NCBI RefSeq assembly: GCF_009914755.1
Contig: NC_060925.1
DNA: 64,000 nucleotides
Strand: one strand, 5' to 3'
From: the human T2T-CHM13v2.0 reference genome, Homo sapiens
Below, piece by piece: positions 24,391-25,990 of this stretch. Every line of letters starts with the position of its first letter. Positions within the stretch are counted from its first letter, which is position 1. Under the pieces are notes generated by a model, which saw only the letters and a list, made by a program, of their open reading frames with translations, did no database searches and was not told the origin of the DNA. The translations under genes were made by a program, and so were the position numbers.

Positions 24391-24680
24391 CTGCAATCTT
24401 GGCACTTTGGGAGGCCAAGGCAGGCGGCTGCTCCTTGCCCTCGGGCCCCGCGGGGCCCGTCCGCTCCCCCAGCCGCTGCCTCCCGGGCGGTGCTCGCCGG
24501 CGCGGCGGCAAAGACTGAGACAGCTCCGCTGCCCGCTGAACTCCATCCTCCCGGCGGTCGGGCGGCGGCGGCTGCGGTCGGGCGGCGGCGGCTGCGGTCG
24601 GTCGCGGCAGCGGCTCCGCTTCATATCTGCAGCTGGGGCCCGCGGGCGTCAGCGCCGCGACTGTCCCGGCTCCGCACCTC
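23040..24680. promoter_or_regulatory. CpG island (SVA VNTR plus MAST2 exon 1 fragment)
   Basis: Only CpG-dense, very GC-rich stretch in a CpG-depleted AT-rich window. Confidence 0.75.
24428..24678 (-). pseudogene. MAST2: Transduced fragment of MAST2 exon 1 (54 nt of 5' UTR plus coding part), spliced to the SVA
   Basis: Translates MKRSRCRDRPQPPPPDR (ATG at 24624) and, in a second frame, REDGVQRAAELSQSLPPRRRAPPGRQRLGERTGPAGPEGKEQ, matching the recalled MAST2 N-terminus; joins the SVA at GAGCAG|CCGCCTGCC. Confidence 0.93.
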
Positions 24681-25990
24681 TCTGCTCCTCCTATTCGACA
24701 GACAGCCACATCTTCTTGTGCAGTGCCAGCCGCATCCCTAAGACACCATGGTTAAAGTGAAGGATGGAGTAAATGGTTTTGGCCGTATTGGGCACCTGGT
24801 CACCAGGGCTGCTTTTAATTCTGTCAAAGTAGATATTGTCACCCTCAATGATTCCTTCATTGACCTCAGCTACATGGTCTACATGTTCCAGTATGATTTC
24901 ATCCATGGCAAGTTCCATGGCACTATCAAGGCTAAGAACAGGAAGTTTGTCATCAATGGAAATCCCATCATTATCTTCCAGGAGTGAGAGCCCATCACAA
25001 TCAAATGGGATGATACTGGTGCTGATTATGTTGTGGAATCCACCAGCATTTTCACTACTGTGGAGAAAGATGGGGCTCATGGGGTGGGAAGTCAAAAGAG
25101 TCATCATCTCTGCTCCCTTTGCTGATTCCCCCTGTTCATGATGGTCATAAAGCATGAGAATTATAAATCAGCAATGCCACCTGTACCACCAACTGAGTAG
25201 CCCCCTAGCCAAGGTCATCCAAGACAACCTTGGAAATCATGGAGGGACTCATGACCACACTCATGATCACTGTCACTTCACCCAGAAGACCATGGATGCC
25301 CCCTCTGGGAAACTGCGGTGTGATGGCCATGGGGCTCTCCAGAAATCATCCCTATATCTACGGGTGCTGCTAAGGCTGTGGGCAAGGTCATCCCTGAGCT
25401 GAACAAGAAGCTCACTGGCATGGCCTTCCATGTCCCCAGTGCCAACATGTTGGTACGAGACCTGACCTGGCATCTGGAGAAACCTGCCAAATATGATGAC
25501 ACCAACAAGGTGGTGAAGCAGGCATCAGAGGGCCTCCTCAAGGACATCCTGGGCTATACTGAGCACCACGTTGTCTCTTACTTTAACAGTGACACCCATT
25601 CTTCCACCTTGATGCTGAGGCTGCCATTGCCCTCAATGACTACTTTGTCAAGCTCATGTCCTGGTATTACAGTGCAGTTAGCTACAGCAACAGAGTGGTG
25701 GACTTCGCAGACCACATGGCCTCTGAGGAGTCAGAACCCCAGACCATCAACACAAGCAAGAGCACGAGAGGAAGAGAGAGGCCCTCAGCTGCTAGAGAGT
25801 TCCTGCCACACTCAGTCCCCCACCACACTGAGAATCTCCCCTCCTCACAGTTTCCATGCAGACCCCCTGAAGAGGGAGGGGCCCAGGTATCCCTACCTTG
25901 TCATGTGCCATCAATAAAGTCTCCTGTACTCAGCCAAAAATATTAAATAAATAATGGATAGATAAATTCATATGTACATAAAAAAATAAA
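24679..25990 (+). pseudogene. GAPDH: Full-length processed GAPDH pseudogene, disabled
   Basis: GAPDH-like 5' UTR (tctctgctcctcctattcgacag...agacaccATG at 24748); [15 protein letters not shown]; intronless; TGA at 24985-24987; frameshifts; SNATCTTN* at the catalytic motif; GKVIPELN...; 3' UTR with AATAAA 25913-25918; degenerate A-tail; candidate TSD taaatacgagc (22468-22478) / taaataccagt (25987-25997). Specific GAPDHP number not determined. Confidence 0.97.

What the first reader, a model, noticed from the sequence alone, without database searches (positions are those of the whole stretch)
24428..25990. Candidate human-specific promoter capture: MAST2 CpG-island fragment head-to-head with the start of a full-length GAPDH retrocopy
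Seen: the SVA_F1 TSD (tctctgctcctcct) is the GAPDH mRNA 5'-terminal sequence. The right copy (24679-24692) therefore restores the pseudogene's start directly beside the 5' end of the MAST2 exon-1 fragment, in divergent orientation. The pseudogene keeps its 5' UTR, a good-context ATG (acaccATGg, 24748) and AATAAA (25913). Established: SVA_F1 is human-specific, carries CpG-rich MAST2 exon 1, and CpG-island promoters often initiate in both directions. Inference: when this island is unmethylated (germ line, embryo, tumours, loss of KRAB-ZFP/TRIM28 silencing), a formerly promoterless pseudogene could give a ~1.25-kb unspliced polyadenylated RNA in humans only.
Basis: partly seen in the sequence, partly recalled or inferred. 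Interest (0 to 1): 0.85.

Follow-up and report, generated by a model that had tools for sequence, protein, structure and literature searches.

The report
SVA_F1 inserted at GAPDHP24 start
A young, human-specific SVA_F1 retrotransposon sits head-to-head with the first base of an old, dead GAPDH retrocopy; the layout is real, but nothing yet shows that it switches the pseudogene on.

Summary
A minus-strand SVA_F1 (22499-24678) is flanked by an exact 14-bp target-site duplication (22485-22498 and 24679-24692). That 14-mer is the first 14 nt of GAPDHP24, an intronless, full-length GAPDH retrocopy that is 85.7% identical to the parent exons. The MAST2 piece (24428-24677) has CpG-island composition (78.8% GC, CpG o/e 1.03). 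It abuts the retrocopy head-to-head, separated by one extra base.

Corrections:
- The MAST2 piece is 5'-short. It holds 230 of up to 381 nt in gene register, plus one extra 20-bp unit, which is below the published ">320 bp" full-length mark.
- It is mostly sequence downstream of the ATG.
- No SVA_F1 examined carries MAST2's upstream promoter.
- The ORF from ATG 24748 stops after 79 codons.

The "promoter capture" idea could not be tested, because no expression or methylation data were reachable. Published data lean against it in somatic cells: SVA-F1 is methylated outside testis, and SVA insertions mostly raise methylation in the 100 bp upstream. The sequence still allows a germ-line transcript: three GC boxes lie 99-194 nt upstream of the retained GAPDH start, and there is no canonical AATAAA before 25913.

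Verdict: an ordinary insertion, and a reasonable but unsupported hypothesis.

The parts
22485..22498 (+). Left copy of the 14-bp target-site duplication. It is the orphaned first 14 nt of the GAPDH retrocopy.
   Evidence: exact repeat, 2 hits in the window, 0 of 100 shuffles reach 2; equals GAPDH gene L017 4875-4888.
22499..22521 (-). SVA poly(A) tail, 23 uninterrupted A (read as T on +).
22522..23020 (-). SINE-R module with the SVA AATAAA signal. Boundaries are approximate.
   Evidence: 22531-23020 scores 875-880 of 884 bits (0-2 differences) against 35 other genomic copies..
23021..24389 (-). VNTR, with units of 37-50 nt and multiples. Boundaries are approximate.
   Evidence: GC 76.5%, CpG o/e 0.54.
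24390..24427 (-). Alu-like remnant left after the MAST2 splice junction.
   Evidence: same junction as in 6 other SVA_F1 copies. The MAST2 gene continues with GT (intron) at that point.
24428..24677 (-). MAST2 exon-1 piece: 250 nt, or 230 in gene register. 53 nt lie before and 197 nt from the ATG at 24624-24622. The composition is that of a CpG island.
   Evidence: GC 78.8%, 40 CpG, o/e 1.03. Minus-strand ORF from 24624.
24554..24615 (.). 20-bp unit GCGGTCGGGCGGCGGCGGCT in 3.0 tandem copies. That is one unit more than in the MAST2 gene and most SVA_F1 copies, and it is shared with the chr15 copy.
24678..24678 (-). One extra G at the SVA 5' end (C on +). It is absent from the MAST2 gene (A there) and from the left flank (T there). 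It is read as an untemplated, cap-related G of a full-length cDNA, and it happens to match the C of the GAPDH mRNA.
   Evidence: Untemplated G at the 5' ends of full-length SVA insertions was reported in PMC3287187.
24679..24692 (+). Right copy of the target-site duplication, continuous with the retrocopy.
24679..25936 (+). GAPDHP24, a full-length processed GAPDH pseudogene.
   Evidence: colinear with 9 exon blocks of the gene, 1078 of 1258 aligned positions identical (85.7%), K2P 0.162, 17 indels. CpG o/e 0.12. Hub annotation.
24748..24987 (+). Residual ORF of 79 codons plus a stop. It aligns to GAPDH residues 1-79 of 335.
   Evidence: Pfam Gp_dh_N, E 4.4e-21; PDB human GAPDH chains, E 5e-37.
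24485..24585 (+). Three GGGCGG boxes on +, starting at 24485, 24560 and 24580. These are 194, 119 and 99 nt upstream of 24679.
   Evidence: These are motif matches only.
25913..25918 (+). AATAAA inherited from the GAPDH mRNA. It is the first canonical signal on + after 24400.
   Evidence: The alignment to the gene ends at 25936.

Best explanation
A young SVA_F1 retrotransposon (about 2.18 kb, minus strand) was inserted by L1-type target-primed reverse transcription into the pyrimidine run at the very 5' end of a GAPDH processed pseudogene about 40 Myr old.

The + strand was nicked after ...CTCCTCCT, before A at 24693. The SVA RNA was copied to its capped 5' end, which added one extra G. Staggered second-strand cleavage then duplicated the first 14 nt of the retrocopy. 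This places the 5' end of the MAST2-derived head one base from the retrocopy's start, in divergent orientation.

Shown here: the parts, their order, the duplication, the youth of the SVA, and the age and decay of the pseudogene.

Inferred: the juxtaposition is a chance by-product of the target site. In most cell types the CpG-dense SVA is methylated and heterochromatic, and so is the adjoining pseudogene start. GAPDHP24 then stays silent. At most it gives rare, unstable upstream-antisense RNA where SVA_F1 is active (testis).
For: Insertion mechanism:
- Exact 14-bp duplication, a 23-nt pure A tail and an SVA_F1 module order.
- An extra G at the 5' junction, as reported for full-length SVA insertions.

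Youth of the SVA and age of the pseudogene:
- The SINE-R differs by 0-2 nt from 35 other copies.
- The pseudogene is 85.7% identical to its parent, carries 17 indels and a stop after 79 codons, and has CpG o/e 0.12. With the rates in PMC2770531 this gives about 39 Myr (my arithmetic).

No promoter is carried:
- Homology of 39 SVA_F1 heads to the MAST2 gene never extends beyond -151 from this copy's first base.
- The gene's upstream GC boxes lie further out.
- This head is 5'-short: 230 nt against the published full-length mark of >320 bp.

Silencing is the common state:
- SVA-F1 'remain methylated' outside testis and show low CAGE signal (PMC5007689, sections 9-10).
- SVA_LRIG2 (an F1) goes with higher local methylation and lower neighbour expression. 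Its deletion modestly raised LRIG2 expression (for the latter, abstract and section headings only).
- The 100 bp upstream of SVA insertions gained more than 50 points of methylation at 24 loci and lost it at 4 (preprint PMC13648404, passages).
- 2 of 3 private substitutions in this copy's head are CpG to CpA.

Other:
- No RefSeq transcript or functional element is listed here (hub table).
- 'GAPDHP24' appears in print in only 1 paper, which has no locus data.
Against: - The MAST2 piece still has full CpG-island composition, with only 1 of about 41 CpGs lost. It has therefore not yet decayed.
- SVA-F1 RNA is reported as strongly expressed in testis.
- The window copy and the chr15 copy start at the same nucleotide, and the window copy has the cap-type extra G. 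This argues that Pol II can initiate exactly at this head's first base in the germ line. That would open chromatin at the junction.
- On +, three GC boxes sit 99-194 nt upstream of the retained GAPDH start sequence. No ATG precedes 24748 and no canonical AATAAA precedes 25913. A transcript that did start there could therefore run the full 1.25 kb.
- A few SVA insertions have hypomethylated heads and lower flank methylation.
- No expression or methylation data for this locus were seen, so silence is inferred, not shown.
Confidence: 0.7

Rival explanations
1. When unmethylated, the MAST2-derived CpG island works in reverse as a promoter. Its GC boxes and the retained GAPDH pyrimidine start sequence would give a human-only, unspliced, polyadenylated GAPDHP24 RNA of about 1.25 kb.
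For: - Head-to-head geometry with a one-base spacer.
- CpG o/e 1.03 over 250 nt; three GGGCGG on + at -194, -119 and -99; initiator-like matches at 24621 and 24706; ATG 24748 is the only ATG in 24400-24760; the first AATAAA is at 25913.
- SVA-F1 is expressed in testis, and the MAST2 piece binds BORIS.
- The MAST2 piece is reported to influence transcription in germ-line cells (Zabolotneva 2012, seen only as cited).
- A shared, capped RNA start lies at the element's first base.
- A hypomethylated TE-borne CpG island with divergent transcription has been described for an L1HS insertion.
- The locus is uniquely mappable: the best other full-length match is 82%, and no scored stretch exceeds 85%.
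Against: - No transcript evidence of any kind was found (hub table).
- Only exon sequence downstream of the MAST2 start is carried, and this copy lacks the start-proximal 133-151 nt.
- Paired divergent starts usually lie upstream of the sense start (my recollection, not tested). Here that would be to the right of 24678, inside CpG-poor pseudogene DNA (o/e 0.12). Such a start could fall beyond the ATG, rather than at 24500-24750 as predicted.
- No 5' splice-site consensus lies on + in 24400-26100. The RNA would therefore be unspliced, and such RNAs are usually unstable (recollection).
- Population and locus studies show that SVA mostly adds methylation to its upstream flank and represses neighbours.
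Confidence: 0.12
2. The SVA matters, if at all, at a distance and not through the pseudogene. It would act as a methylated silencer, a germ-line or early-embryo enhancer, or a CTCF/BORIS-bound boundary on neighbours such as KCNK2 (about 135 kb downstream) or the upstream lncRNA.
For: - BORIS/CTCF occupancy of SVA-F1 heads and VNTRs.
- The SVA_LRIG2 element shows long-range contacts and modest effects on genes about 300 kb away (abstract).
- The hub table places KCNK2 and LOC105372916 as the nearest genes.
Against:
- The distances are large.
- Most SVA copies have no shown effect.
Confidence: 0.08
3. The two 14-mers are not a target-site duplication. The SVA and the pseudogene would have been brought together by another rearrangement, or by an SVA-mediated transduction of pseudogene sequence.
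For: The chr15 sister copy also has purine-rich sequence (…AGAGA) just upstream of the same first base, which at first looked like shared sequence.
Against: - The register differs by one base, and the chr15 flank is an Alu A-tail.
- The left 14-mer is followed directly by the SVA A tail, and the right one runs on into GAPDH-colinear sequence.
- Chance is excluded for the repeat itself.
Confidence: 0.02

Closest known systems
SVA_F1 (CpG-SVA, MAST2-SVA) subfamily of human SVA retrotransposons
   Same: MAST2 exon-1 sequence is spliced onto the Alu-like region at the family's junction. There is no hexamer array. VNTR, SINE-R, A tail and target-site duplication are all present. The family is described as human-specific, with at least 84 reference copies.
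   Different: The head is shorter than in most copies. It starts at a position shared with only 1 other of 39 heads examined (the chr15 copy), and it carries one extra 20-bp unit. By the >320-bp definition of PMC12593883 it is 5'-truncated.
SVA_LRIG2, a polymorphic SVA_F1 about 2 kb upstream of LRIG2 and its divergent partner LRIG2-DT
   Same: It is an SVA_F1 next to a transcription start region and has been studied for its effect on neighbours.
   Different: In that case the neighbour already has a bidirectional promoter. The reported effect is more methylation and lower expression, the opposite of promoter donation. Here the neighbour is a promoterless pseudogene one base from the SVA head.
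TE-borne promoters that fire outward: the L1 antisense promoter, and hypomethylated L1HS insertions with divergent transcription
   Same: A young retrotransposon's 5' CpG-rich region gives transcripts that run into the flanking DNA (TYW1 example; mouse L1 antisense promoter, title and abstract).
   Different: Those activities are demonstrated. For SVA_F1, outward (antisense) initiation from the MAST2 head was not found in print in my searches and is untested here.
Human GAPDH processed pseudogenes (burst about 42 Myr ago; PMC2770531)
   Same: It is intronless, runs from the mRNA start to the poly(A) site, has a disabled ORF, and has an age within the reported burst.
   Different: Its first 14 nt are duplicated and split off by a 2.18-kb insertion. 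Its own target-site duplication is no longer detectable.

Membership tests
SVA_F1 retrotransposon | MAST2 exon-1 sequence at the 5' end, joined to the SVA Alu-like region at the family's splice junction and replacing the hexamer array | tested here: met
   the junction is identical to that of 6 other copies, and the MAST2 gene (L007) continues with its intron at that point. No CCCTCT array.
SVA_F1 retrotransposon | VNTR, SINE-R and poly(A) tail downstream | tested here: met
SVA_F1 retrotransposon | L1-type insertion marks: target-site duplication and an A tail abutting it | tested here: met
   (14 bp, 0 of 100 shuffles).
SVA_F1 retrotransposon | Full length in the sense of PMC12593883: more than 320 bp of MAST2 sequence | tested here: not met
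   230 nt in gene register (250 with the extra unit). 20 of 39 heads examined pass the mark. Definition read.
SVA_F1 retrotransposon | Human-specific: empty orthologous site in chimpanzee and other apes | not testable with these tools
   No ape genome is held. Family-level human specificity is taken from the papers read.
GAPDH processed pseudogene | Colinear with the spliced mRNA from its start to the poly(A) site, without introns | tested here: met
   9 exon blocks are contiguous in the window. The start lies 31 nt after the first base of the gene's TATAAA, and the end is at the gene's 3' end after AATAAA.
GAPDH processed pseudogene | Disabled reading frame | tested here: met
   stop after codon 79 of 335, and 17 indels.
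GAPDH processed pseudogene | Own target-site duplication | tested here: inconclusive
   the best local match scores 15 against a shuffle mean of 14.0, and 98 of 300 shuffles reach it. This is expected at this age.
Bidirectional CpG-island promoter | CpG-island composition (at least 200 bp, GC at least 50%, o/e at least 0.6; thresholds recalled) | tested here: met
   250 nt, GC 78.8%, o/e 1.03.
Bidirectional CpG-island promoter | Carries the region upstream of the sense start, where the reverse core promoter normally lies | tested here: not met
   only transcribed MAST2 sequence is carried. This copy begins 133-151 nt downstream of the longest heads. The upstream side is CpG-poor pseudogene DNA (o/e 0.12).
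Bidirectional CpG-island promoter | Capped transcript starts on both strands, an unmethylated state and H3K4me3 | not testable with these tools
   No CAGE, RNA or methylation data were reachable. The supplement look-ups gave nothing.

The most novel reading that the evidence does not exclude
The insertion built a composite, human-only promoter. MAST2-derived GC boxes, read in reverse, would combine with the GAPDH mRNA's own pyrimidine start sequence, which the target-site duplication restored. In germ cells, the early embryo or demethylated tumours, this would yield a capped, polyadenylated GAPDHP24 RNA whose first ORF encodes the first 79 residues of GAPDH, part of the NAD-binding domain. It would be the first documented case of outward initiation from an SVA_F1 head waking a dead retrocopy.
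Probability: 0.1. Interest if true: 0.5.

Novelty: new member of a known kind. Interest (0 to 1): 0.25.

Why it matters
If the pseudogene RNA exists only in humans, and only where the SVA head is unmethylated, the locus would be a clean natural experiment. The retrocopy had no promoter for tens of millions of years, the donor is dated and lineage-specific, and the RNA maps uniquely. It could show that the MAST2 head of SVA_F1, currently among the most active human SVA lineages, fires outward as well as inward. That would matter for the hundreds of polymorphic SVA_F1 insertions. As things stand, it is an accurately described but ordinary insertion with an untested idea attached.

Tried and rejected
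- The two founding SVA_F1 papers, looked up by PMC id: not held. Their content is used only as cited by others. Zabolotneva 2012 and Bantysh 2009 were likewise seen only as citations.
- Print evidence for GAPDHP24 RNA: 1 paper holds the name, a network-inference study with no locus data. Supplements are not covered by that search.
- RAMPAGE TE-TSS atlas (PMC12963367): the 3 readable supplement files hold no 'SVA', 'SVA_F' or 'GAPDHP'. The atlas files themselves are too large to read. The one small readable supplement of PMC12587700 gave nothing. These blanks say nothing about expression.
- Searches for SVA outward or bidirectional initiation: no paper describing it for SVA_F1 was found.
- Rfam scan of 22000-26500: 0 families.
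- The pseudogene's own target-site duplication: not distinguishable from chance.
- Parent-daughter test between the window copy and the chr15 copy: no 3' or 5' transduction from either flank, and the chr15 copy has no clear duplication. The direction is unresolved, and both may come from a third source.
- The apparent 6-nt extension of similarity to the chr15 flank: rejected as chance similarity of purine-rich flanks in a different register.
- My first fetch of the chr15 element took the wrong side. It was repeated correctly.
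Full report
**What is there**

Reading 22300-26200 and scanning for repeats shows a complete minus-strand SVA between two exact copies of TCTCTGCTCCTCCT, at 22485-22498 and 24679-24692. The 14-mer has only these two hits in the 64-kb window, even when one mismatch is allowed. 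None of 100 dinucleotide-preserving shuffles gave two.

From right to left on the + strand, which is 5' to 3' for the element:
- one extra base at 24678;
- 250 nt of MAST2 exon-1 sequence (24428-24677);
- a short Alu-like remnant (about 24390-24427);
- a VNTR of about 1.37 kb;
- SINE-R (about 22522-23020);
- a pure 23-nt A tail (22499-22521).

The whole human assembly is held as G000, and the MAST2 piece found the MAST2 gene itself (L007, chromosome 1 at 45.68 Mb) and many SVA_F1 copies. An alignment of the gene, six other copies and the window shows that MAST2 similarity ends at the gene's exon-intron border. In every SVA copy, including this one, it then continues into the same Alu-like sequence. 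That is the defining junction of SVA_F1. There is no hexamer array.

**The pseudogene**

I located the GAPDH gene in G000 (L017). The window from 24678/24679 to 25936 is colinear with nine exon blocks without introns. Of 1258 aligned positions, 1078 are identical (85.7%), the K2P distance is 0.162, and there are 17 indels.

The 14-mer equals L017 4875-4888, which starts 31 nt after the first base of the gene's TATAAA (4844-4849).

ATG 24748 is in a GACACCATGG context and is the only ATG on + between 24400 and 24760. The first canonical AATAAA on + is at 25913. The ORF stops after 79 codons. It aligns residue for residue to GAPDH 1-79 of 335.

With the substitution rates of PMC2770531 (passages read), the distance corresponds to about 39 Myr (my arithmetic). 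This falls within that paper's human GAPDH-pseudogene burst. The retrocopy's own target-site duplication can no longer be told from chance. Its CpG o/e is 0.12.

The best other full-length match in the genome is 82%, and no scored stretch exceeds 85%. This rests on the 40 of 84 candidates that were scored. RNA from this copy would therefore map uniquely.

**How it got there**

The + strand reads ...CTCCTCCT followed by the T run (the A tail of the insert). In the uninterrupted pseudogene the next base is A (24693). The nick thus fell after a pyrimidine run and before a purine. That is a loose version of the L1 endonuclease preference (the preference is recalled; the junction is read).

Base 24678 matches neither the MAST2 gene (A at that place) nor the left flank (T). 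An untemplated G between the 5' duplication and full-length SVA insertions is reported in PMC3287187 (passage). I therefore read it as the mark of a cDNA that reached a capped RNA 5' end. It happens to match the C that precedes the 14-mer in GAPDH, which explains why RefSeq starts GAPDHP24 at 24678.

**Corrections to the picture of a captured promoter**

I compared 39 SVA_F1 heads with the gene. End points come from BLAST, and only 40 of 83 first-look candidates had been scored. With this copy's first MAST2 base as +1, the heads start at:

| Start position | Heads |
|---|---|
| -151 / -148 | 2 |
| -133 / -131 | 12 |
| -121 | 1 |
| -104 / -103 | 5 |
| -72 to -65 | 4 |
| -54 | 1 |
| -8 | 1 |
| +1 | 2 |
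| +51 | 1 |
| +78 / +81 | 2 |
| +83 | 8 |

The consequences for the promoter-capture idea are:
- No head extends into the gene's upstream region, where the gene has its own GC boxes. What SVA_F1 carries is transcribed exon sequence, not the MAST2 promoter.
- This copy has 230 nt in gene register, below the '>320 bp' full-length mark of PMC12593883. Of the 39 heads, 20 pass that mark.
- Within the piece, 53 nt lie before and 197 nt from an ATG at 24624-24622. I recall this ATG as MAST2's start codon, but I did not check that here.
- The piece holds one extra 20-bp unit (three copies, 24554-24615). The extra unit and the +1 start are shared only with a copy on chromosome 15. No transduction links the two loci, so parentage is unresolved.

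**What bears on the functional idea**

For it:
- The MAST2 piece is still a full-grade CpG island (78.8% GC, 40 CpG, o/e 1.03).
- Three GGGCGG boxes on + lie 194, 119 and 99 nt upstream of the retained GAPDH start sequence.
- There are no upstream ATGs, and no canonical poly(A) signal before 25913. Variant hexamers AGTAAA (24768) and TATAAA (25162) do occur.
- SVA-F1 RNA is reported as strongly expressed in testis, and the MAST2 head binds BORIS (PMC5007689, section 10 read in full).
- The shared +1 start and the extra G argue that Pol II initiated at this head's first base in the germ line. This implies open chromatin at the junction at that time (inference).

Against it:
- The same paper says SVA-F1 'remain methylated' in other settings of genome-wide hypomethylation, and that CAGE signal on SVAs is low.
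- The SVA_F1 near LRIG2 goes with more methylation of the nearest probe and lower neighbour expression (PMC7697779, passages). Its deletion modestly raised LRIG2 expression (PMC10774264, abstract and headings only).
- In a pangenome preprint, the 100 bp just upstream of SVA insertions gained more than 50 points of methylation at 24 loci and lost it at 4 (PMC13648404, passages). Those 100 bp are exactly where the pseudogene's start lies here.
- Two of the three private substitutions in this copy's head are CpG to CpA. This fits some germ-line methylation, though the numbers are small.
- Divergent start pairs normally place the reverse start upstream of the forward one (recalled). Here that means inside CpG-poor pseudogene DNA, possibly beyond the ATG, rather than at 24500-24750.
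- No 5' splice-site consensus lies on +, so any RNA would be unspliced.

**What could not be seen**

No expression or methylation data for this locus were reachable.
- 'GAPDHP24' occurs in one paper of the library, without locus data.
- The readable supplements of a RAMPAGE TE-start atlas hold no SVA or GAPDHP entry, and the atlas file itself could not be read.
- Searches for outward or bidirectional initiation from SVA found no such report for SVA_F1.
- No ape genome is held, so human specificity of this insertion rests on the family's published status and on the youth of this copy. Its SINE-R differs by 0-2 nt from 35 other copies, and its A tail is a pure 23 nt.

**Verdict**

The element is a 5'-short member of SVA_F1, and the neighbour is an ordinary, old GAPDH processed pseudogene. 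Their head-to-head contact follows from a nick in the pseudogene's pyrimidine-rich first bases.

The promoter-capture reading is coherent and cheap to test, but it has no support yet, and the general behaviour of SVA insertions is against it outside the male germ line.
- About 0.7 that the pseudogene is silent or gives only trace unstable RNA.
- About 0.12 that a real human-only polyadenylated RNA exists in some hypomethylated state.

Interest is low to moderate.

Noticed in passing
L002/L020 (G000 chromosome 15, 61282561 onward) compared with window 24428-24678: A second SVA_F1 starts at exactly the same MAST2 nucleotide and shares the extra 20-bp unit. It is 99% identical over the head. It lies behind an Alu A-tail and has no clear target-site duplication. 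The two form a small sub-lineage, and which one is the parent, if either, could not be decided.
   Followed up: partly
39 SVA_F1 heads in G000 (L002-L006, L008, L021-L052, window): The 5' ends are not scattered. They cluster at -133/-131 (12 heads), -104/-103 (5) and +83 (8) relative to the window copy's first base. This suggests either a few discrete RNA start points inside the MAST2 piece or a few source elements. It is a partial sample: 40 of 83 candidates were scored.
   Followed up: partly
window 24554-24615: The added 20-bp unit lies after the ATG at 24624-24622 and shifts the frame of the MAST2-derived ORF. The minus-strand ORF 24241-24624 starts like the gene copy's ORF and then diverges.
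   Followed up: no
window 24678: A single extra G at the SVA 5' end happens to match the GAPDH mRNA base before the 14-mer. This is why the RefSeq pseudogene span starts at 24678 rather than 24679.
   Followed up: yes
window 22531-23020: The SINE-R module differs by 0-2 nt from at least 35 other genomic copies (1497 first-look candidates, 40 scored). This underlines how young the element is.
   Followed up: yes
window 22300-22420: A pyrimidine-rich, CT-skewed stretch (GC skew about -0.45) lies just upstream of the pseudogene's original 5' flank. No repeat family or function was assigned to it.
   Followed up: no
window 26029-26063: A small tandem repeat (16-nt unit, 2.1 copies) lies downstream of the pseudogene. 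It is probably trivial.
   Followed up: no
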